Origin: Candidatus Hydrothermales bacterium
GTDB lineage: Bacteria; Hydrothermota; Hydrothermia; Hydrothermales; JAJRUZ01
Direction of reading: 5' to 3'
Length of the DNA: 64,000 nt
Assembly: GCA_039630235.1 (NCBI GenBank)
Contig: JBCNVI010000001.1
Span: forward strand, 363,059 to 427,058
Shown: piece after piece, positions 15,154 to 24,492 of the stretch
Layout of the letters: the number at the start of each line of letters is the position of its first letter
Position numbering within the stretch: position 1 is the stretch's first letter
Notes under the pieces: model-generated
Database searches by the model: none
What the model was told of the DNA's origin: nothing
The model's input: only the letters and a program-made list of their open reading frames with translations
Program-made: the position numbers and the translations under genes

Positions 15154-16491
15154 AAAATTTTCCCCTTAAAATTTAATAATAAATTACTAACAGAAAAAGA
15201 ACTTTTAGTAAAATATTCATATGATGAGTCCCCCTTAAAAGGTAAAATACCTGAATTTGTTTTTATCCCTGAAAATGTAGAGGATGTTTCACAGTTTGTT
15301 AAATTTTGTTTTAGAAAGAACATATATATAACACCAAGAGGTGGGGGAACAGGTCTTTCAGGAGGTGCTGTTCCACTAAAAGGTGGTGTCATCTCCTTTG
15401 AAAAAATGAACAAGATCATAGATCTTGATCCTATTAACCAAACGATTACTCTTGAACCTGGGATAATCACAGGTGATATAAACAAAGTCCTTTTAAGCGA
15501 AAACCTATTTTATCCACCTGATCCTATGAGTCTTGACTCTTGCACAATAGGAGGAAACGTAGCAACAAACGCAGGTGGACCAAGGGCCTATAAGTACGGG
15601 GTTACATCAAATTACCTGATTGAACTTGAATGCGTGTTACCAAACGGAAACGTAGTTAACGTGGGGAGGGGAACGAAAAAGTGGAAAACAGGTTATAACC
15701 TTTTGAGTTTGCTCTGCTCATCCGAAGGCACTCTTGCCCTATTTACAAAAATAAAACTAAAACTAATACCAAGGCCAGAAAAAGAAGTACTAACAGTAAT
15801 GAGTTTTCAGGAAAATGAAGATCTCTTTAATTTTGTTATAAAACTTATCAAAAATAAATTTTTTCCCTCTATAATTGAGTTCATGGATAAGGGATGCGTA
15901 AGACTTGTCAGAAAAAAGGTTAAACACATGTTTCCTGAGGAACACTCGTTGCTTTTTGTAGGATTTGATGGAGACGAAGAAGAAATTGAGAAGATCTTAG
16001 AAAAACTTTATGATTTTGCGGAGAAAGAGAAAATAGAAAGAATTTTTATAGGCGACGATAAAAGCTCTGTAGATAGAATTTGGGAGATTAGAAAAAAAAT
16101 GTTTTATGAAACAGAAAAAGAGGGATTTAAGGTTCACTCAGAGGATATCTGTGTAACAATTAAAACAGCTCAAAACTTTATAAATGATGTGAAGAATTTA
16201 TTTAAAAATTACTCGAAAGAACCTTACATATTTGGACATCTAGGAGACGGAAATATTCATATTAACTTGACATATAAAAAAGACGAAGAGAGATTGATAA
16301 GAAAAATTTCAGAGGAAATATGGGATCTTGCTATTAAAATTGGGGGTACAATAACAGCTGAACACGGGGTGGGATACCTGAAAAAAAAGGGATTTAGGAA
16401 AGAAACAGATCCAATTTTATATAAAATACAAAGGGAAATTAAAAGAACTTTTGATCCAAAGGGTATCTTGAATCCTGGAAAACTCTTTTAA
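15154..16491 (+). CDS. FAD-linked oxidase (GlcD / D-lactate dehydrogenase family), start codon unresolved
   Basis: The frame is open from the stop at 15151. FAD-binding PCMH motifs (ITPRGGGTGLSGGAVP) lie upstream of the first ATG at 15406, so the ORF-track start is too short. There is no ATG, GTG or TTG between 15154 and 15405; only ATT or ATA could serve. The C-terminal FAD-oxidase_C-like region is present. Confidence 0.6.
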   Translation, partial: KIFPLKFNNKLLTEKELLVKYSYDESPLKGKIPEFVFIPENVEDVSQFVKFCFRKNIYITPRGGGTGLSGGAVPLKGGVISFEKMNKIIDLDPINQTITLEPGIITGDINKVLLSENLFYPPDPMSLDSCTIGGNVATNAGGPRAYKYGVTSNYLIELECVLPNGNVVNVGRGTKKWKTGYNLLSLLCSSEGTLALFTKIKLKLIPRPEKEVLTVMSFQENEDLFNFVIKLIKNKFFPSIIEFMDKGCVRLVRKKVKHMFPEEHSLLFVGFDGDEEEIEKILEKLYDFAEKEKIERIFIGDDKSSVDRIWEIRKKMFYETEKEGFKVHSEDICVTIKTAQNFINDVKNLFKNYSKEPYIFGHLGDGNIHINLTYKKDEERLIRKISEEIWDLAIKIGGTITAEHGVGYLKKKGFRKETDPILYKIQREIKRTFDPKGILNPGKLF

Positions 16492-17950: not shown

Positions 17951-18136
17951 ATGAAAGTAAAAGTATCACAGATTTTATTCTTATTGGCTGTTATAACGTT
18001 CATAATTGCTATAGTTTTAAAATTATCAGGTGGTGAATTTCCCCATCTTTTTAAACCCTACACTTATATAAAGGGTACCTGGACATTACTTTTATTTTCT
18101 CTCACCTATCATTTGATTTTTGAAAAGGAGAAATAA
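17951..18136 (+). CDS. Small hypothetical membrane protein (2 TM)
   Basis: 61-aa ORF with two hydrophobic helices, 29 nt upstream of the roadblock gene. Confidence 0.25.
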   Translation: MKVKVSQILFLLAVITFIIAIVLKLSGGEFPHLFKPYTYIKGTWTLLLFSLTYHLIFEKEK

Positions 18137-18164: not shown

Positions 18165-18563
18165 GTGACGAGGGATACTTTAATTTTAGGGGTGGAGGAG
18201 TATGTTGCTCTACAAAAGTTACTAGATGATTTTACTTATAGAGCAAATACATACTCTTCAATGTTTTCTACACTTTCAGGTCAACTACTTGTCTCCTCCG
18301 GTTTTAAAACTCCCTTTAATCTCCTTGCAATTTCAGCACTCCTTGCAGGAATCTTTCAAAGCACAAGAGAACTCGCAAGACTGATAGGAGAAAAAAATTT
18401 TCTTACTTTTTTTCAAGAAGGAGACAGTTGGAACATATATTACACACTAGTAGGGGAAGACTTTTTACTTACAACCTTTTTTGATGATAGAACAATACTT
18501 GGAATAGTTGAAGTACAGGCAAAAAAACTAAGTAAAAGGATACTTGAAATTCTAAGAAGATGA
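18165..18563 (+). CDS. Roadblock/LC7-domain protein (MglB-like)
   Basis: 132 aa with the size and alpha-beta pattern of Roadblock/LC7 (LILGVEEYVALQKLLDD...ILGIVEV). Overlaps the next gene by 4 nt. Confidence 0.55.
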   Translation: MTRDTLILGVEEYVALQKLLDDFTYRANTYSSMFSTLSGQLLVSSGFKTPFNLLAISALLAGIFQSTRELARLIGEKNFLTFFQEGDSWNIYYTLVGEDFLLTTFFDDRTILGIVEVQAKKLSKRILEILRR

Positions 18564-20335
18564 GTCTTCTTAACCCAAGATTCACCTTTAAGAATTTAAT
18601 CGAGTATAAGGGAAACAGAATGGCAAAGAGAGCCCTAGAAGCGATAATTGAAGAACCTTTGCTTTTTAATCCCATTTTTTTGTGCTCCGCACCCGGCATG
18701 GGTAAAACCCATCTTATTACAGCTCTTGCCCATAAGTTAAGAGAAAAAAACATAAAAGAACTGTTTTTAACACCAAAAGAATTTGAGAGAGATTACGAAA
18801 AAATTTACGAATTTAAAAAGGGCTTTCTCATCATTGATAATTTTGAAACTTTTCCTAAAATAAAAAATGAAATAATAGAGGACTTTTCAAAAAATATAGA
18901 TGTAATTATTGCTAATGAAATTCAAATAGTACTGTCATCTTCATTATCATTAGATGAACTAAAAGGCCTAAAGGAAGAATTAATATCAAGGATAAAAGGT
19001 GGACTTGTAATTGAAATTTTACCACCAGATGAAGAGGACATAAAACTTCTAATTAAAGAAAAACTCTCAAAAAGAGGAGTTTTAATAGAAGAAAAATTCA
19101 TAAATCTTATATCAAAAAAGGGTTATAAAAATATAAGAGAAATTGAGGGAGATATAAATAGGATCTTTTTAAGATTCATCTCAAAAGAAAAAATTGAAGA
19201 AAAAGATATTGAAGAAATAACCGGAATATCTTTACCAATTCTCTTTTTTTCAGATATAATACCAGAAATAGAAAAGAGTTTAGAAAAATTTGAAAAAATT
19301 GCGAGAGAGGAAGAAGCTTTAAAAACAGCACTAAAGGAGAAAATATATATATGGGAAATGAAAGGTTATAAAACAGATAGACTCAAAAAATTGGTAGATA
19401 TAAAGGACATTGAAAGCATAAAAAGGGAGTATAGAAGATTTGTAAGTGATATTATGAAATTAATTGAATTTCAAAAAATTTATGGAGAAATAGGTGAACA
19501 AGATCCGGAAATTGAAAAGGCTCTTTTTGATCCAGATAGAATTGAAGAAGTGGAAAAATTCATAGAAGAAAAGAGAACTCATCTAAGAAAAAGAGAAGTG
19601 CCGCAGAAATTGAGAGAAACAGAATTTAAAATTATAGAGTCAGATTATAATAGGGATGTTCTAGAAAATATAAGAAAACAGGCAACTCAAGGAGAGCCCT
19701 CACTAATTTTTGTCTTTTCACCTGGTAAAAGGGGACTTTCAACACACCTTCTTTATGCCTATGAAATTAACCCTGAACCTAAAAGAGTACTTTTTAACTC
19801 TAGCGATTTAACCGATCTTTTTTTTGAAAATCAAAGTAAATTAAATAAAGTCTTTGAAGATTTTAACTTTATAATTATAGACGATGCTGAAATCTTCTTT
19901 GATGTAGAAGATTTAAGAGATAAATTAATTCCGATAATATTAAAAGAAAAGAATAGAGGAAAAAGGTTTTTAATAGGAGTTAAAAAAGAAATGAAAGAAA
20001 TTTTTCTTCCCCCTGAGTTTAAAAATCTTTTTAAAGTGGCAAAAGTTACCTTCATTGAAAAGCCAGATAATAAAATCTTACTCGAGTTTTTAAACCAAAA
20101 ACTAAAAAATAAGGGCTTAGAAATCGATGAGAACCTAAAAAAAGAGATATTAAATAGAGATTTTTTTGACCTAAAAGAATTTGAAGAGCATTTTGAAGAA
20201 TTTTTAAAAGAACTTGAAAAAGTTAGGGAAACAGAAAGTCTTGCAGGATATTTAACTGAGGTTGAAGGGGAAAGTAGGAAAATAATCTTTGATATTGAAA
20301 TACTAGAGGAAAGAATTTTTGAGGATTATCCATGA
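18560..20335 (+). CDS. Tandem DnaA-like AAA+ ATPase (pseudo-dimeric), not canonical DnaA
   Basis: 591 aa. Module 1 (residues 8-230) matches DnaA domain III: FTFKNLIEY...NPIFLCSAPGMGKTHL (Walker A), LIIDNFE (Walker B with DN), NIREIEGDINRI (sensor region). Module 2 (~370-520) repeats the fold with a degenerate P-loop (PGKRGLSTHLL) but a canonical IIIDDAEIF Walker B. DnaA domains I, II and IV are absent. Confidence 0.6.
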   Translation: MSLLNPRFTFKNLIEYKGNRMAKRALEAIIEEPLLFNPIFLCSAPGMGKTHLITALAHKLREKNIKELFLTPKEFERDYEKIYEFKKGFLIIDNFETFPKIKNEIIEDFSKNIDVIIANEIQIVLSSSLSLDELKGLKEELISRIKGGLVIEILPPDEEDIKLLIKEKLSKRGVLIEEKFINLISKKGYKNIREIEGDINRIFLRFISKEKIEEKDIEEITGISLPILFFSDIIPEIEKSLEKFEKIAREEEALKTALKEKIYIWEMKGYKTDRLKKLVDIKDIESIKREYRRFVSDIMKLIEFQKIYGEIGEQDPEIEKALFDPDRIEEVEKFIEEKRTHLRKREVPQKLRETEFKIIESDYNRDVLENIRKQATQGEPSLIFVFSPGKRGLSTHLLYAYEINPEPKRVLFNSSDLTDLFFENQSKLNKVFEDFNFIIIDDAEIFFDVEDLRDKLIPIILKEKNRGKRFLIGVKKEMKEIFLPPEFKNLFKVAKVTFIEKPDNKILLEFLNQKLKNKGLEIDENLKKEILNRDFFDLKEFEEHFEEFLKELEKVRETESLAGYLTEVEGESRKIIFDIEILEERIFEDYP

Positions 20336-21912
20336 GAGGTTCACTTAGGGAAATTCCATTTTCAGACGTTGTCCAGTTAATGGTTATGGGTAAAAAAACT
20401 GGTAGACTTTCAGTAACTAACGGAGAAGATTTTCTAGAAATCTATTTTAAGGGTGGAATAATAATATTTGGGAAAATGATAAATAGAAAAGAAAAAGTTG
20501 GAGAAATTCTTCTATCTAAGGGTGTAATTAACGAAGAAACTTATAAAAAAGCTGAAAATTTAATTGAAAAGGGAGCACCAAACTTTGGATCAGCACTAAT
20601 TGAGCTTGGAATTTCTGAAGATGAAATTAAGAAAGTTTATGAAGAAGAAATAAAAAAATTTGTCTCGGAAGCGATTTCTTGGTCAGACGGATATTTTAAC
20701 TTTGAACAAGATGAATTTCCAAAGGAAAGACCAATAATATCTCTTGATCCTTCTTATTTACTTATAGAGTCTGCAAAAACCTTCGACGAATGGAAAAAAG
20801 TTCAAGAACTAATTCCTTCAATTGATGAAATTTGTATCTTGAAAGATAAAACATATAAGCCCGTTGATGAGAAAGAAAAAATAATAATTGAATTTGTAGA
20901 CGGAGAAAAAACCGTAAGGGAAGTATTCGAGAAAGCTGGAAAAAACCTCTTTGAGCTTGCTGAGACTTTTAAGAATCTCCTTTTAAAGGGAGTAATAGAC
21001 ACAATCCCAAAGAAAAAAAGGGATGAAGAAGTATCTAAAACAAAAATTTTAGAACATATTAATTTAGGTTATGCCTTTTTAAAAACTGGATTATTTGAAG
21101 AAGCAGAGAGGGAATTTAGAAGATTAAATGAGATTATTCCTGACAAAGCAGATAGTTTCTTTTATCTAGGGCTTCTATCAATTTACAAAAAAGAATTTCA
21201 AAAGGCAATAGAGTTTTTAAAAGAAGCCCTAAAAAGAGACCCAACTAATCCCAAAATTATGAACAACCTCTTTTTCATATATATTGAAACAAATAATCTT
21301 AAAGAAGCGGAAAAAATTTTAGAGGAAATTGACAAGCTCAAATTCGAAGACGAGAGATTTTTGTTAAATAAAGCAATTTATTTTGACAAAATAAATGAAA
21401 AAATAAAATCAGAAGAAATAATTAAAACTTTAATGAAAGAAAGATCCTTTCTTAAAACCCCTTATATCATGTTAGCACAGAAATTATACAATGAAAAAAA
21501 GTATCTCCAAGTAATTGAAATACTCTCAATCTTAAAGGGCTATGATCCCAAAAATCCTGAGGTAAATTATGGTTTAGGGATATCATACAGAGCTTTAAAA
21601 AAGTTTAAAGAAGCTGAAGATTACTTAAGAAACGCAATTAAATTATCCCCGTCTAACGTAAAGTATAAACTCGCATTAGCTGACTTATTGTATGAAAGGG
21701 GAAGACACGATGAGAGTAAGACCCTCTACACACAGATACTATCAATTGATAAACAGAACAAGGAGGCTCTTTTAAGATTAGGTAATATTTATCTGAAAGA
21801 AGGAAAAAACAAAATTGCATTAAAATACTTTGAAGATTTATTAAAGATTGATCCAGAAAATAAAGTAGCAAAAAGAAACTTAGAAATTTTAAGAAAAGCT
21901 GTAAATGTATAA
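20332..21912 (+). CDS. DUF4388-domain / TPR-repeat protein
   Basis: 526 aa. The N-terminus LREIPFSDVVQLMVMGKKTGRLSV...IYFKGGIIIFG fits the DUF4388 consensus. The C-terminal half carries multiple TPR-like repeats (AEREFRRLNEIIPDKADSFFYLGLLSIYKKEFQKAIEFLKEALKRDP...). Confidence 0.55.
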   Translation: MRGSLREIPFSDVVQLMVMGKKTGRLSVTNGEDFLEIYFKGGIIIFGKMINRKEKVGEILLSKGVINEETYKKAENLIEKGAPNFGSALIELGISEDEIKKVYEEEIKKFVSEAISWSDGYFNFEQDEFPKERPIISLDPSYLLIESAKTFDEWKKVQELIPSIDEICILKDKTYKPVDEKEKIIIEFVDGEKTVREVFEKAGKNLFELAETFKNLLLKGVIDTIPKKKRDEEVSKTKILEHINLGYAFLKTGLFEEAEREFRRLNEIIPDKADSFFYLGLLSIYKKEFQKAIEFLKEALKRDPTNPKIMNNLFFIYIETNNLKEAEKILEEIDKLKFEDERFLLNKAIYFDKINEKIKSEEIIKTLMKERSFLKTPYIMLAQKLYNEKKYLQVIEILSILKGYDPKNPEVNYGLGISYRALKKFKEAEDYLRNAIKLSPSNVKYKLALADLLYERGRHDESKTLYTQILSIDKQNKEALLRLGNIYLKEGKNKIALKYFEDLLKIDPENKVAKRNLEILRKAVNV

Positions 21913-22675
21913 CTTAAAGCAGGTAAAAGAACTAATCTTTGAAAAAACGGGCATTGATCTTTCTTATTACAGAGATAACTATCTTGAAAGAAGATTAAGA
22001 GTAAGAATGAGAAAAAATAATCTTAATGACATTAGCCTTTATATAGAAAAGCTCGAAAATGATGAAGAAGAAAGAAAGAAATTCATTAATGAAATAGGAA
22101 TAAATGTATCTTATTTTTTCAGAAATAAAAGTACATATGACCAAATAAAAAGTTTAGTTTTGCCTGATTTAAAAATGAGAGGAAAAATATACATATGGAG
22201 TGCTGGTTGTGCTTCAGGTGAAGAACCATACTCTGTGGCAATTCTTATGAAAGAGGAAGGTATCGAAGGCTATAAAATTTATGCAACAGATATTGATAAT
22301 GAAGCACTCGAAAAGGCAAAAATGGGAATATACGAACCAGATAAATTGATCGAAACTCCAGGGGAGCTGATAAAAAAATACTTTGAAAAAATTAATAATA
22401 AATTCAAAATTTCTGAGGAACTTAAAAAAAACATAAATTTCTTTTTTCATGACATAACAAAAAAACCGCCACTTACAAATTTTGATCTTGTTTTATGTAG
22501 AAACGTAATAATTTATTTTGTAAAAGAAAAACAGAAACTGGTTTTTGAAAATCTATATTTAAGCTTAAAAAAGAACGGCTTTTTAATTCTAGGGAAAACT
22601 GAATTCCTTCCTTTTGAATTTCTTGATAGATTTGAGTATGTATCTAAAGTTGAGAGAATACTTAGGAAAATATGA
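21905..22675 (+). CDS. cheR: Chemotaxis-type protein-glutamate O-methyltransferase (CheR family)
   Basis: 256 aa with an N-terminal all-alpha CheR domain (VSYFFRNKSTYDQIK) and a SAM-binding core (IWSAGCASGEEPYSVAIL...ATDID). Confidence 0.75.
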   Translation: MYNLKQVKELIFEKTGIDLSYYRDNYLERRLRVRMRKNNLNDISLYIEKLENDEEERKKFINEIGINVSYFFRNKSTYDQIKSLVLPDLKMRGKIYIWSAGCASGEEPYSVAILMKEEGIEGYKIYATDIDNEALEKAKMGIYEPDKLIETPGELIKKYFEKINNKFKISEELKKNINFFFHDITKKPPLTNFDLVLCRNVIIYFVKEKQKLVFENLYLSLKKNGFLILGKTEFLPFEFLDRFEYVSKVERILRKI

Positions 22676-24492
22676 AAGAAGAGAAAATATTTGTAAATGT
22701 CCTAGAAACAGACTATGAAAATAGTTTCTCACTCAGTTACCCAAATTGGAGATTTAAATTTGAAAAAGTACTTGAGGAAATTGAAAAGGGAAACATAAGA
22801 TATATACACACTGGTGCAAGTGCCTCTTTTTTCTTAAGATTTTATAAAGAAAATAGCTCTGAAGAATTAAAACTAAACTTACTTCTTAGACTTAAAAAAA
22901 TCGGAATTAACCCTTTTTATTATTTTATCCCTCCAAATCTTCTTGAAGCTCACTCACTTATAAAAAATTTAAAGATAGTTTATGATGAATTAAAAGAAAG
23001 TTTTTCAGGAGAAAAAGTACTTTATTTGCCAATAATCAGTAAATTACCAAGTGGACTTTTTTACCTTTTAAAAGGCTTTGATATTGACCTTTTAGTATCA
23101 AAAATTCCACTTAAAAAACACTTTGTTATAACAAAAGATTTTGAAAATGAAATAAAAATAATGAATGTTTCCTGTGACTCAAAAAATGTATTTATAGAGC
23201 CCTATCCTCAAAAAGATGAAATAAAAAACAGTCTTTTCTCACTTGAGGAAATAACCTCAACTATACCAGAAAAAGGTGACTTTTTTGAGTTTAATTCAGA
23301 TATAAAAGTTAAAAAAAATTACCCCTATTTCAAAAAACTTGAGGATTTAATTTTTAAATGCGGTGTCTTAAACACAATTTTAAATGTTTATAAAGTGATT
23401 CCCTCAGACTACTTTATCAAGGAAAAAAACAAAAACTTTCTAAAACTTTTTAATTCAGACAACACTGAACTAATAAAGGAAGAAATTAAGGAATTAAAAA
23501 TATATATTAAAACTGTTACAGAGGATTTTATTGAGGAAAAAGAGGGATATTTAATTTTTAATGTTTTACCCTTTAAAAGAGAATACTATAGGATAATAAA
23601 AAATAAGCTATTCAGAGCTGAGGTAGAAAGTCTCAGTTTTTCAGAGCTTAAAGAAGAAAAATCAGTATTTCAAGAGGTAGACTTTAAAATTTATGAAAGG
23701 GGCAACCTAAAATTTTACGATCTTTACATTTATCCAAAGTTAATTGGAGAAAAAGGTGAAATAAAAGGTGGAATATATGAAGAAGAATTATTTAAGGAAA
23801 ACTTTATTAAAACAAATTCTAAAATAAAGTGGGATAAAAAAATTTTCTTATTTTCAACCTCTTTTTTACCACACGATGAAAGTCTTAAACTAAAGGGAAA
23901 ACTAATTAATATAAATAGATGTGAAATTTTAATTTATAGTGAAAAAAATTTTAAAGTTTATACTTTCGCTCCCTTTGTTAAAGAAGAAATAACTACAAAA
24001 AAAATTTATTCAGGATATTTAATTATAGAAGGTGAAAAAACCTACTTCCTTAAAACAATACCTGGAACAATTTTAGAAAGAAAAAACGGAATTATAAAAT
24101 TAGTTTTTGATAAAAATGTTGAGTTAGAAATTAAGAAAATTTCAGAATTTACAGTTAAAGAATTTTTGAAATTCAAATATAAACCAATTTTATTTAAGGG
24201 AAAACTCAAAAAAAAACTAAATCCACTCTTTGAAATAAAAAATGATAATGTAAACTTTCTTTCTCTTGATTTAAATGAAAATACTCTTTTTATTTATTTA
24301 TACTCGCAAGATAATGAAAGTATAAAGCTACTGTTTAAGGAAAAAACTGGTGAAGCCTTTTTATTTGATCTAAAAGCAAAAAGGAAACTTGACAAATTAG
24401 TAATTAAAGAAAGATGGGTTATAACTCCTTCTCAAAGGGGTCTATTTTGTATTGGTATTGATATTACTAAGATGCCTCTTTATATTTTTTAA
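22672..24492 (+). CDS. Hypothetical protein (606 aa), translationally coupled to cheR and the M28 gene
   Basis: Long Lys/Glu/Phe-rich ORF with no motif recognised by eye. Its 4-nt and 1-nt overlaps with neighbours argue that it is a real operon member. Confidence 0.4.
   Translation: MKEEKIFVNVLETDYENSFSLSYPNWRFKFEKVLEEIEKGNIRYIHTGASASFFLRFYKENSSEELKLNLLLRLKKIGINPFYYFIPPNLLEAHSLIKNLKIVYDELKESFSGEKVLYLPIISKLPSGLFYLLKGFDIDLLVSKIPLKKHFVITKDFENEIKIMNVSCDSKNVFIEPYPQKDEIKNSLFSLEEITSTIPEKGDFFEFNSDIKVKKNYPYFKKLEDLIFKCGVLNTILNVYKVIPSDYFIKEKNKNFLKLFNSDNTELIKEEIKELKIYIKTVTEDFIEEKEGYLIFNVLPFKREYYRIIKNKLFRAEVESLSFSELKEEKSVFQEVDFKIYERGNLKFYDLYIYPKLIGEKGEIKGGIYEEELFKENFIKTNSKIKWDKKIFLFSTSFLPHDESLKLKGKLININRCEILIYSEKNFKVYTFAPFVKEEITTKKIYSGYLIIEGEKTYFLKTIPGTILERKNGIIKLVFDKNVELEIKKISEFTVKEFLKFKYKPILFKGKLKKKLNPLFEIKNDNVNFLSLDLNENTLFIYLYSQDNESIKLLFKEKTGEAFLFDLKAKRKLDKLVIKERWVITPSQRGLFCIGIDITKMPLYIF

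What the first reader, a model, noticed from the sequence alone, without database searches (positions are those of the whole stretch)
18560..20335. Internal duplication of a DnaA-type AAA+ module with complementary motif degeneration
Module 1 keeps a perfect P-loop (GMGKTHL) but has a DN in place of the Walker B DD (LIIDNFE). Module 2 has a corrupted P-loop (PGKRGLSTHLL) but an intact IIIDDAEIF. Such complementary decay is typical of obligate pseudo-dimeric ATPases where one composite site is catalytic. The N-terminal (I, II) and DNA-binding (IV) domains of DnaA are missing, so this is not the replication initiator.
Basis: seen in the sequence. Interest (0 to 1): 0.6.

Follow-up and report, generated by a model that had tools for sequence, protein, structure and literature searches.

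The report
Tandem DnaA-like ATPase in motility operon
This gene encodes two copies of the ATPase module of the replication initiator DnaA joined by a previously undescribed helical domain. It is not a replication protein: it belongs to an uncharacterised family that always sits in an operon with cell-polarity and chemotaxis-type genes (MglA/MglB, PATAN-TPR, CheR) in several uncultured bacterial phyla.

Summary
ORF 18560..20335 (+, 591 aa) holds two DnaA-domain-III-type AAA+ modules: M1 (aa 1-225) and M2 (aa 351-560). The quoted motifs are present. The modules align at profile level with E = 3e-30. DnaA domains I, II and IV are absent.

Walker A and Walker B line the same pocket of one module, so they cannot complement each other across modules. 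M2 has lost the P-loop lysine, the box VII arginine finger and the sensor II arginine. M1 keeps all three and has only DD changed to DN. I read this as one ATP-binding, probably slowly hydrolysing module plus a conserved pseudo-ATPase module (dN/dS about 0.1).

Relatives show that M2 was once a complete DnaA-type module and that the P-loop loss is specific to this clade. The protein belongs to an unnamed family of more than 100 members (WOR-3/Caldifarciminota, Stahlbacteria, Cloacimonadota, Edwardsbacteria, Gemmatimonadota). The family is defined by a helical YIWEMKG[FY] domain and an acidic-aromatic C-terminus.

Synteny is almost invariant: mglA and/or mglB upstream (43/45), PATAN-TPR as the next gene (43/43), then cheR (39/41). 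The helical domain also occurs as 9-10 tandem repeats in giant proteins of a Thermoplasmata archaellum operon. The most likely role is a nucleotide-gated scaffold in polarity and motility signalling.

The parts
18165..18563 (+). mglB-like gene (132 aa, Roadblock/LC7 fold). Its stop overlaps the ATG of the next gene (ATGA).
   Evidence: phmmer against PDB: M. xanthus MglB, E = 2e-15 over aa 6-129. NCBIfam MglB, 5.7e-11, below cut-off. Pfam Robl_LC7, 2.6e-4. Lies directly upstream of the family gene in 32 of 45 loci.
18560..20335 (+). Whole ORF: tandem DnaA-type AAA+ protein, 591 aa.
   Evidence: An identical protein in NCBI is named 'DnaA/Hda family protein', from a Candidatus Hydrothermales bacterium MAG.
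18560..19234 (+). Module 1 (aa 1-225): complete DnaA domain III (AAA+ base plus lid) with a shortened initiator-specific motif.
   Evidence: Pfam Bac_DnaA, 3e-19. PDB DnaA domain III, E = 1.6e-21 over aa 2-204, with about 11 fewer residues between strands beta2 and beta3. Foldseek 8bv3_A, E = 1e-14, TM 0.79. pLDDT above 90.
18695..18715 (+). M1 Walker A, GMGKTHL (K49).
   Evidence: G48, K49 and T50 are invariant in the 14-sequence alignment A1; G48/K49 are in at least 90% of the 70-sequence alignment A2.
18827..18847 (+). M1 Walker B variant, LIIDNFE (D93, N94). Aligns with LLIDDIQ of DnaA.
   Evidence: DN occurs only in part of this clade and in Cloacimonadota; elsewhere the motif is DD.
18986..19006 (+). 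M1 box VII, SRIKGGL (arginine finger R144).
   Evidence: S143, R144, G147 and G148 are invariant or nearly so.
19130..19150 (+). M1 sensor II, NIREIEG (R193). Matches DnaA NIRELEG.
19235..19609 (+). Family-signature helical domain (aa 226-350). Contains the invariant IYIWEMKGY (nt 19343-19369), Y291, F294, L301, Q305, I318-E319 and F323.
   Evidence: The most conserved part of the family. AF2 predicts three long helices, with pLDDT 73-93 in the full model and 83.8 for the domain alone. No match in Pfam, in PDB sequences or by Foldseek. Occurs as 6-11 tandem repeats in other proteins.
19610..20239 (+). Module 2 (aa 351-560): DnaA-type AAA+ fold whose nucleotide-site motifs are degenerate in this clade.
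   Evidence: hhalign against M1, E = 3e-30. Against canonical DnaA domain III, E = 4e-26. pLDDT above 90. dN/dS 0.105 against L006.
19721..19753 (+). M2 degenerate P-loop, PGKRGLSTHLL (GK replaced by LS). Conserved in this form within the clade.
   Evidence: Relatives have G-x-G-x-GK[TS] at this position.
19871..19897 (+). M2 Walker B, IIIDDAEIF (D441, D442).
   Evidence: D441 is invariant in alignment A1 and in at least 90% of sequences in A2.
20240..20332 (+). Disordered acidic tail ending in the conserved C-terminal motif EERIFEDYP (nt 20306-20332).
   Evidence: pLDDT below 50. An acidic plus aromatic C-terminus is found across the family.
20332..21912 (+). PATAN (DUF4388)-TPR protein, 526 aa. 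Its start overlaps the stop of the AAA+ gene.
   Evidence: Pfam DUF4388, 3e-22, plus many TPR hits. It is the next gene in 43 of 43 loci.
21905..22675 (+). CheR-type protein-glutamate methyltransferase, 256 aa.
   Evidence: Pfam CheR, 3e-52, and CheR_N, 5e-15. Follows PATAN-TPR in 39 of 41 loci.
22672..24492 (+). 606-aa protein of unknown function. In this clade it occupies the position held by cheD-cheB-TPR in most relatives. Its start overlaps the cheR stop.
   Evidence: No hit in Pfam, NCBIfam or PADLOC. A full-length homologue follows cheR in L006 (606 aa, phmmer E = 0); in L002 a 599-aa gene with no Pfam hit sits at the same position, but it was not matched by phmmer at E <= 1e-3, so homology there is untested.

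Best explanation
The gene encodes a non-initiator protein built from DnaA-type modules. Its layout is: a complete DnaA domain III AAA+ module (M1), a family-specific helical domain (YIWEMKG[FY]), a second DnaA-type AAA+ module (M2) and a disordered acidic tail ending in a conserved acidic-aromatic motif.

Shown:
- It belongs to an unnamed family found in WOR-3/Caldifarciminota, Stahlbacteria, Cloacimonadota, Edwardsbacteria, UBP2 and Gemmatimonadota.
- The family is co-transcribed in a conserved cassette: (mglA)-mglB-[this gene]-PATAN-TPR-cheR-(cheD-cheB-TPR).

Inferred mechanism:
- The protein is a nucleotide-gated assembly scaffold or switch of an MglA/MglB polarity and motility signalling module.
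- M1 binds ATP (intact P-loop and sensor II) and uses its box VII arginine for head-to-tail contacts with other AAA+ modules, as DnaA does.
- The DN Walker B makes M1 a slow or non-hydrolysing, long-lived ATP state.
- In this clade M2 no longer binds nucleotide and serves as a conserved interaction platform.
- The helical domain and the C-terminal peptide dock partners. The best candidates are the TPR array of the downstream PATAN-TPR protein, MglB, or CheR.
For: Architecture and motifs.

Not an initiator:
- TIGR00362 scores 138 bits against a cut-off of 344, and Hda TIGR03420 scores 77 against 195.
- There is no domain I, II or IV.
- DnaA boxes occur at the chance level.

Functional constraint: dN/dS is 0.046 for M1, 0.109 for the linker and 0.105 for M2 against an 83%-identical orthologue.

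Synteny in 47 loci:
- PATAN-TPR is the next gene in 43/43.
- cheR follows in 39/41.
- mglA or mglB lies within 1.5 kb upstream in 43/45.
- Gene ends overlap by 4-8 nt in the window.

The neighbours are genuine MglA and MglB. MglA of L012 matches M. xanthus MglA at E = 5e-68 over its full length. The window's MglB-like protein matches M. xanthus MglB at E = 2e-15.

[quoted passage not shown] MglA and MglB genes are known to sit near PATAN genes (PMC4316618).

Independent link to motility: the signature helical domain recurs as 9-10 tandem repeats in two adjacent giant proteins of a Thermoplasmata archaellum operon, next to an ArlH-like KaiC ATPase, archaellins and ArlC/D/E.

Every lineage keeps at least one intact P-loop: M1 only in this clade and in the short forms, M2 only in L046/L061/L066/L067, and both elsewhere.
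Against: - There is no experimental data on any family member, and all hosts are uncultured.
- Function rests on gene neighbourhood and domain co-occurrence.
- No mglA was found in the window. This clade lacks cheD and cheB in the cassette and has an unknown 606-aa gene instead.
- The relative orientation of the modules is not predicted reliably (pTM 0.43), so intra- versus inter-molecular use of R144 is open.
- The effect of DN on hydrolysis is inferred from Walker B mutants of other AAA+ proteins and was not measured.
- Within the clade M2's DD and its altered loop (G-x-RGLSTH) are strongly conserved. That could mean a ligand-binding role that I have not recognised.
- The partner of the C-terminal motif is unknown.
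Confidence: 0.6

Rival explanations
1. One reading: an obligate intramolecular pseudo-dimer in which M1 (good P-loop, bad Walker B) and M2 (bad P-loop, good Walker B) together build one composite catalytic ATP site.
For: M2's DD and the surrounding FI[IV]IDDAEIFF are strongly conserved within the clade even though the P-loop is lost, so the acidic pair may still do something. Both modules are under purifying selection.
Against: Walker A and Walker B are elements of the same pocket in an AAA+ module. The only element supplied in trans is the box VII arginine, which M2 lacks (R is replaced by L), and M2 also lacks the sensor II arginine. Most family members do not show complementarity: mainstream members have both P-loops intact, deep members have both modules fully intact, and short forms lack M2 altogether. 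L007 and P0012, from the same clade, have DD in both modules.
Confidence: 0.07
2. An Hda-like regulator of replication: M1 docks on genuine DnaA-ATP through its arginine finger and modulates initiation, coupling the cell cycle to polarity or chemosensory signals.
For: M1 is much closer to DnaA than to any other AAA+ protein (hhalign E = 7e-58 against DnaA domain III). It retains the DnaA-specific FNP motif, box VII and the NIRE[IL]EG sensor II. Hda is the precedent for a protein made only of domain III that acts on DnaA (NCBIfam Hda hit, 77 bits).
Against: The Hda score is far below the family cut-off of 195 bits. No clamp-binding motif is visible at the N-terminus (MSLLNPRF, read by eye). The synteny is with polarity and chemotaxis genes and never with replication genes. 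The signature domain links to archaellum genes.
Confidence: 0.12
3. The protein is the docking platform, or even the substrate, for the cassette's CheR/CheD/CheB enzymes. On this view its disordered arm plus C-terminal acidic-aromatic motif mimics the chemoreceptor linker and NWETF pentapeptide.
For: cheR is present in 39/41 cassettes, and cheD and cheB in most. No receptor, CheA or CheW gene was seen in the loci examined. The tail is disordered and acidic. Four members end in a strict xZxxZ-COOH (VWEEY, VWEEF). The window clade ends in IFEDY plus one Pro. The motif definition is from PMC7390727.
Against: Only 4 of 150 members match the strict pentapeptide and 13 match with one extra residue. 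The majority motif, ELIEENY, has no aromatic at position 2, and one subclade has 6-7 residues after it. The cassette's CheB has a receiver domain, which implies a CheA and probably ordinary receptors elsewhere in the genome. No methylation-site-like sequence is conserved in the helical domain. An EEVD-like peptide binding the TPR array explains the motif equally well.
Confidence: 0.1
4. A STAND-like NTPase of an anti-phage defence system, or a decaying and functionless DnaA paralogue.
For: Weak Pfam hits to nSTAND_NTPase5 (28 bits, below the cut-off of 34) and to nSTAND3.
Against: The protein has no PADLOC hit. Overall dN/dS is 0.084. The family is conserved across several phyla with fixed synteny. 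Both modules are predicted to fold confidently.
Confidence: 0.03

Closest known systems
DnaA, domain III (AAA+ initiator clade; PDB 8bv3, 1l8q/2hcb, 2z4r)
   Same: M1 aligns from the first residue of domain III to the end of the lid. It carries the FNP motif, Walker A, box VII SRxxGG and sensor II NIRE[IL]EG. M2 has the same fold and, in relatives, the same motifs.
   Different: There is no domain I or II (self-association and helicase interaction) and no domain IV (DnaA-box binding). The initiator-specific motif is shorter by about 11 residues. Walker B is DN. The module is present twice. The gene never neighbours dnaN or recF, and DnaA boxes are not enriched.
Hda (DnaA-related regulatory inactivator; PDB 3bos)
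   Same: A DnaA paralogue consisting of domain III only, and a precedent for a non-initiator use of this module.
   Different: Hda has a single module of about 230 aa and a clamp-binding N-terminus. Here the score is far below the Hda cut-off, the architecture is tandem with an extra helical domain and tail, and the gene context is different.
Type II (two-module) AAA+ proteins such as NSF, p97/Cdc48 and ClpB
   Same: Two AAA+ modules in one chain, with one module often catalytically weak and used for assembly (for example NSF D2; from established knowledge). Foldseek lists these proteins because of the tandem layout.
   Different: Those are classic-clade or HCLR-clade hexameric translocases with pore loops. 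Here both modules are of the initiator clade, which forms open spirals. The superpositions are poor (TM about 0.25, rmsd above 24 A).
MglA/MglB polarity module with the Frz chemosensory system of Myxococcus xanthus
   Same: The same GTPase/GAP pair, genetically linked to chemosensory adaptation enzymes and to PATAN and TPR proteins.
   Different: No RomR/RomX, FrzCD or FrzE is in the cassette. No AAA+ partner of MglA/MglB has been described in the papers searched.
Repeat proteins of a Thermoplasmata archaellum operon (P0340 and its 1588-aa neighbour, locus L079)
   Same: They share the ~105-aa helical W-x3-G[FY] domain, each copy at E = 1e-7 to 1e-18, and it is combined with a P-loop ATPase.
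   Different: They carry 9-10 tandem copies rather than one. The ATPase is KaiC/RecA-type, not DnaA-type. The host is an archaeon, and these proteins are themselves uncharacterised.

Membership tests
DnaA replication initiator (TIGR00362) | Score at or above the curated equivalog cut-off | tested here: not met
   137.8 bits against a cut-off of 343.9.
DnaA replication initiator (TIGR00362) | N-terminal domains I and II | tested here: not met
   The alignment to DnaA starts at query residue 2, equivalent to B. subtilis residue 109. No PF11638 hit.
DnaA replication initiator (TIGR00362) | C-terminal DnaA-box-binding domain IV (PF08299) | tested here: not met
   No hit. The residues after the M1 lid form the helical domain and M2.
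DnaA replication initiator (TIGR00362) | Clustered DnaA boxes or an origin context | tested here: not met
   17 matches with at most 1 mismatch against 17.9 expected, and none clustered near the gene.
AAA+ initiator-clade ATPase module (DnaA domain III, PF00308) - module 1 | Walker A GxxGxGK[ST], Walker B hhhhD[DE], box VII arginine, sensor II arginine, and the alpha-beta-alpha base plus lid fold | tested here: met
   PF00308 scores 70 bits against a cut-off of 23. All motifs are present except that the second Walker B acid is Asn. Foldseek TM is 0.79 to 8bv3.
AAA+ initiator-clade ATPase module (DnaA domain III, PF00308) - module 2 | The same motifs and fold as for module 1 | tested here: inconclusive
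   Fold and homology are met: hhalign E = 3e-30 to M1 and 4e-26 to DnaA domain III, with pLDDT above 90. The window's M2 has no P-loop Lys, no box VII Arg and no sensor II Arg, and it does not reach PF00308 on its own. Relatives' M2 reach 54-65 bits.
Hda (TIGR03420) | Score at or above the cut-off; single module; N-terminal clamp-binding motif | tested here: not met
   76.6 bits against 194.8. The architecture is tandem. The N-terminus MSLLNPRFTF shows no QL[SP]LPL-type motif (read by eye).
Type II AAA+ unfoldases (p97/NSF/ClpB) | Two classic- or HCLR-clade modules forming stacked hexameric rings with pore loops | tested here: not met
   Both modules are of the DnaA type. Superpositions on p97 and NSF have TM 0.22-0.29 and rmsd 24-30 A. 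Oligomeric state is not testable here.
Unnamed 'YIWEMKG' tandem DnaA-like family (defined here) | Signature [ILM][YF][IV]W[EKQ]MKG[FY] helical domain after a DnaA-type module; acidic-aromatic C-terminus; PATAN-TPR as the next gene | tested here: met
   IYIWEMKGY at aa 262-270. C-terminus EERIFEDYP. PATAN-TPR starts at 20332.
Anti-phage defence NTPases (PADLOC) | Match to a defence-system model | tested here: not met
   No hit at E <= 0.01.

The most novel reading that the evidence does not exclude
DnaA's filament-forming AAA+ module has been exapted, in tandem and fused to a motility-associated helical repeat domain, into a new ATP-dependent component of prokaryotic cell-polarity and motility machinery. 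On this reading it is a scaffold that links the MglA/MglB GTPase switch to PATAN-TPR and chemosensory adaptation enzymes in several candidate phyla. The same helical domain would play an analogous role next to KaiC-type ATPases in archaellum operons. A stronger version is that the protein itself is tethered to, or modified by, CheR/CheB through its C-terminal arm.
Probability: 0.3. Interest if true: 0.8.

Novelty: new variant of a known kind. Interest (0 to 1): 0.6.

Why it matters
- DnaA-type AAA+ modules are known almost only from replication initiation and its control (DnaA, Hda, DnaC/IstB helpers).
- This is a family of more than 100 proteins across several phyla in which the module is duplicated, has lost its DNA-binding parts and is tied to MglA/MglB, PATAN-TPR and CheR. 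That is a different use of the initiator fold.
- It identifies a candidate missing partner of MglA/MglB outside the Myxococcota, which lack RomR/RomX-type regulators.
- The family offers a natural series of motif states: both modules intact, M2 without an arginine finger, M2 without a P-loop, M1 degenerate, and M2 absent. This series could be used to work out which nucleotide site matters.
- It brings to light an undescribed ~105-aa helical repeat domain shared between bacterial polarity cassettes and an archaeal archaellum operon.

Tried and rejected
- DnaA-box scan: chance level.
- PADLOC defence models: nothing for the AAA+ protein.
- The linker domain against Pfam, PDB sequences (best E = 0.3, spurious) and Foldseek PDB (best E = 7.6): no relative found. 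The weak Spectrin_SYNE1 hint (E = 0.057) was not pursued as evidence.
- A second homologue search using the alignment returned the same candidates as the first.
- Promoter and terminator scan: uninformative in this AT-rich DNA, except that there is no terminator-like site on the + strand between 18165 and 24400.
- Chemoreceptor-pentapeptide reading of the C-terminus: only 4 of 150 strict matches, so it is kept only as a low-probability rival.
- Duplication after the split from DnaA versus two separate DnaA-derived modules: hhalign cannot tell. M2 is as similar to canonical DnaA domain III (score 175) as to M1 (score 168).
- Literature searches for a described DnaA-like partner of MglA/MglB or PATAN found nothing.
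- Inter-module geometry cannot be read from the AF2 model because pTM is 0.43.
Full report
**What is there.** The finding's coordinates are exactly one ORF: 18560..20335 on the + strand, 591 aa. Its ATG overlaps the stop of an upstream 132-aa gene (18165..18563). Its stop overlaps the ATG of a 526-aa gene (20332..21912). That gene in turn overlaps a 256-aa gene (21905..22675) and then a 606-aa gene (22672..24492), so the five genes form a tightly packed co-directional set. An identical protein is deposited from a 'Candidatus Hydrothermales bacterium' MAG, a member of the WOR-3 lineage, under the automatic name 'DnaA/Hda family protein'. The order is now filed as Caldifarciminales.

**Checking the observation.** All four quoted motifs are present at aa 46-52, 90-96, 388-398 and 438-446.
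- Residues 4-152 match Pfam Bac_DnaA (3e-19). Against solved structures, residues 2-218 align with DnaA domain III of Bacillus, Aquifex and Thermotoga at E down to 1.6e-21.
- The two halves are similar beyond chance even in this single Lys/Glu/Ile-rich sequence. BLASTP gives 26% identity over 214 columns. The Smith-Waterman score lies 3.4 sd above composition-preserving shuffles, and 7 of 2000 shuffles reach it.
- With a 70-member family alignment (A2), profile-profile comparison of aa 1-232 with aa 352-560 gives probability 99.9% and E = 3.3e-30 over 199 columns.
- An HMM of 74 canonical DnaA domain III sequences hits the protein at aa 4-218 and again at aa 395-533.
- AlphaFold2 with this alignment gives two confident alpha/beta modules (pLDDT above 90), joined by a helical region and followed by a disordered tail. 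Mean pLDDT is 85.9, but pTM is only 0.43, so the relative placement of the modules is unreliable.
- The best structural matches are DnaA domain III (8bv3_A, E = 1e-14, TM 0.79) and Hda.

The duplication, and the absence of DnaA domains I, II and IV, are therefore confirmed. DnaA boxes are at chance level, and no other DnaA-like ORF is in the window.

**What the motifs mean.** M1 has the full DnaA set:
- FNP followed by GMGKTH
- box VII SRIKGGL, with the arginine finger R144
- sensor II NIREIEG, with R193
- a Walker B in which the second acid is Asn: LIIDN against DnaA's LLIDD

The segment between strands beta2 and beta3, where DnaA carries its initiator-specific helices, is about 11 residues shorter.

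M2 has lost more:
- the P-loop Gly-Lys is replaced by Leu-Ser
- the position of box VII Ser-Arg is Asn-Leu
- the sensor II arginine is Lys

In an AAA+ module, Walker A and Walker B flank the same nucleotide; only the arginine finger comes from a neighbouring module (established knowledge). M2 therefore has no canonical element to lend to M1's site, and M1's DN cannot be complemented by M2's DD. I read the protein as having one ATP-binding site (M1), probably slow in hydrolysis by analogy with Walker B acid-to-amide mutants. That is an inference. The second module is a pseudo-ATPase. M2 is not drifting: dN/dS against the 83%-identical orthologue L006 is 0.105 for M2, 0.109 for the linker and 0.046 for M1. 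Its altered loop (G-x-RGLSTH) and FI[IV]IDDAEIFF are conserved within the clade. I cannot explain that conservation.

**The family.** Searches recovered more than 100 full-length relatives. A scan of one genome per species found the family in WOR-3, Stahlbacteria, Cloacimonadota, Edwardsbacteria and UBP2. The exhaustive representatives search, with a cluster look-up for the source name, added a deep-branching Gemmatimonadota member.

A motif table of 150 members gives the history:
- Deep members (P0201, P0202) have an M2 with DD and an intact box VII (RIRSRFEGGL), and P0201 also has an intact M2 P-loop (GGVGLGKTH). M2 therefore began as a complete DnaA-type module.
- Mainstream WOR-3 and Stahlbacteria keep both P-loops, have DD in M1 and DN in M2, and have lost M2's arginine finger.
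- Cloacimonadota have DN or EN and no arginine finger in M1, and DD in M2.
- L046/L061/L066/L067 have a degenerate M1 and an intact M2.
- Four genomes have short forms without M2.
- The window clade alone has lost M2's P-loop. Only part of it has DN in M1: L007 and P0012 have DD, and P0014 has DE.

Every lineage keeps at least one intact P-loop. M2 of relatives reaches 54-65 bits on Bac_DnaA by itself. M2 is as similar to canonical DnaA as it is to M1. I therefore cannot say whether the duplication came after the split from DnaA.

**The family signature is not the ATPase.** The most conserved stretch is the helical domain between the modules (aa 226-350). It carries the invariant IYIWEMKG[FY] together with Y291, F294, L301, Q305, I318-E319 and F323.
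- It has no match in Pfam, in PDB sequences or by Foldseek.
- Modelled alone, it forms three long helices (pLDDT 83.8).
- An HMM of this domain finds it as 6-11 tandem copies, each at E = 1e-7 to 1e-20, in large proteins. Some of these end in a DnaA-type AAA+ domain plus zinc ribbons (P0212 and similar proteins).
- Two adjacent Thermoplasmata proteins also carry it. One has 10 copies only. The other is a 1588-aa KaiC-like ATPase with about 9 copies.
- Those two proteins lie immediately upstream of an ArlH-like ATPase, archaellins and ArlC/D/E.

The C-terminus of the family is a disordered acidic arm ending in an acidic-aromatic motif: ELIEENY, ELIEDNF, ERIFEDYP or VWEEY.

**Context.** In 47 family loci, a PATAN(DUF4388)-TPR gene is the next gene in 43 of 43 cases with enough sequence. 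cheR follows in 39 of 41. mglA or mglB lies within 1.5 kb upstream in 43 of 45, with mglB adjacent in 32 and mglA present in 24. Most cassettes continue with cheD, cheB (with a receiver domain) and a TPR gene.

The GTPase is a true MglA (E = 5e-68 to M. xanthus MglA). The window's upstream gene is a true MglB (E = 2e-15). The window clade differs from most relatives: no mglA in the 64 kb, and a 606-aa protein of unknown function in place of cheD-cheB-TPR.

[quoted passage not shown] Links between MglA/MglB and PATAN genes have been noted before. I found no paper describing a DnaA-like partner.

**Most likely function.** Three things are shown: a non-initiator tandem DnaA-type AAA+ protein, a conserved family, and an invariant polarity/chemosensory neighbourhood.

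The rest is inferred. I take the protein to be a nucleotide-gated scaffold or switch of an MglA/MglB polarity and motility module.
- M1-ATP drives arginine-finger-dependent assembly, as in DnaA.
- M2 acts as a regulatory module in relatives and as a purely structural module here.
- The helical domain and the C-terminal peptide act as docking sites. The neighbouring TPR array (an EEVD-like mode of binding) and CheR (a chemoreceptor-pentapeptide-like mode) are the obvious candidates.
- The second mode is weakly supported: only 4 of 150 members strictly match xZxxZ-COOH, and 13 more, the window's clade among them, match with one extra residue.

They are listed with their tests.

**Verdict.** The feature is real and correctly observed. 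The mechanistic gloss is only partly right. The larger result is an undescribed family that moves the DnaA ATPase module into polarity and motility signalling, together with a new helical repeat domain shared with an archaellum operon. All functional statements rest on comparative evidence only.

Noticed in passing
L079:1231-9714 (Thermoplasmata archaeon MAG JAWCLH010000006.1); also P0252, P0212, P0215, P0218, P0231, P0236: The ~105-aa helical W-x3-G[FY] domain of the window protein (aa 226-350) occurs as 6-11 tandem repeats in giant proteins. Two adjacent ones sit directly upstream of an ArlH-like ATPase, archaellins and ArlC/D/E: a 1588-aa protein with a KaiC-like ATPase, and a 1237-aa protein made of repeats only. 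Others combine 6-9 repeats with a DnaA-type AAA+ domain, zinc ribbons and a Lys-rich tail. The domain is not in Pfam.
   Followed up: partly
L069:5926-7755: A 609-aa relative keeps an M1-like module and the MYIWEMKGF domain, but its second NTPase module looks like an ABC-type ATPase (LLGPNGAGKST ... LSGGERRRVEIARAL) rather than a DnaA-type one. No PATAN-TPR gene follows it.
   Followed up: no
L033, L037, L041, L070 (Edwardsbacteria, UBP2 and unnamed MAGs): Short family members (448-495 aa) have M1, the helical domain and a disordered tail ending in ..E[NS]WP, but no second module. In these genomes mglA, a longer mglB-like gene and extra PATAN genes lie upstream.
   Followed up: partly
P0225 and P0230 (1876 and 1990 aa, metagenomic): P0225 carries an MshEN/GspE_N domain (PF05157) and two Bac_DnaA ATPase domains; PF05157 is the N-terminal domain type of PilB1, and the PATAN domain binds PilB1's N-terminal region. 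P0230 (not scanned against Pfam) shows two P-loops at similar positions. This is a further hint that DnaA-type modules are used in pilus-related proteins.
   Followed up: no
window 22672-24492 (+): A 606-aa ORF is translationally coupled to cheR and has no hit in Pfam, NCBIfam or PADLOC. A full-length homologue follows cheR in L006; in L002 a 599-aa gene without Pfam hits occupies the same position but was not detected by phmmer (homology untested). In this clade it replaces the cheD-cheB-TPR genes of most relatives.
   Followed up: partly
window 17951-18136 (+): A small hydrophobic 61-aa ORF lies just upstream of the mglB-like gene. It is conserved in the closest relative (L006:5296-5577, E = 3e-29) and may be a small membrane protein belonging to the operon.
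   Followed up: no
L077:1765-2667 (Gemmatimonadota MAG RFFQ01000173.1): The deep-branching family member with both modules intact (P0201) lies about 5 kb downstream of two bactofilin genes and next to several large proteins without Pfam hits. No PATAN-TPR gene is present there.
   Followed up: no
window 15406-16491 (+): The FAD-linked oxidase ORF starts at position 53 of the FAD_binding_4 profile, and no in-frame extension exists upstream. The gene may carry a frameshift, an assembly error or a truncated N-terminus.
   Followed up: partly
L034:2956-4062 (Cloacimonadota): A PilT/PilB-type secretion ATPase (T2SSE) lies two genes upstream of mglA in one Cloacimonadota cassette, separated from it by a biotin carboxylase gene.
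   Followed up: no
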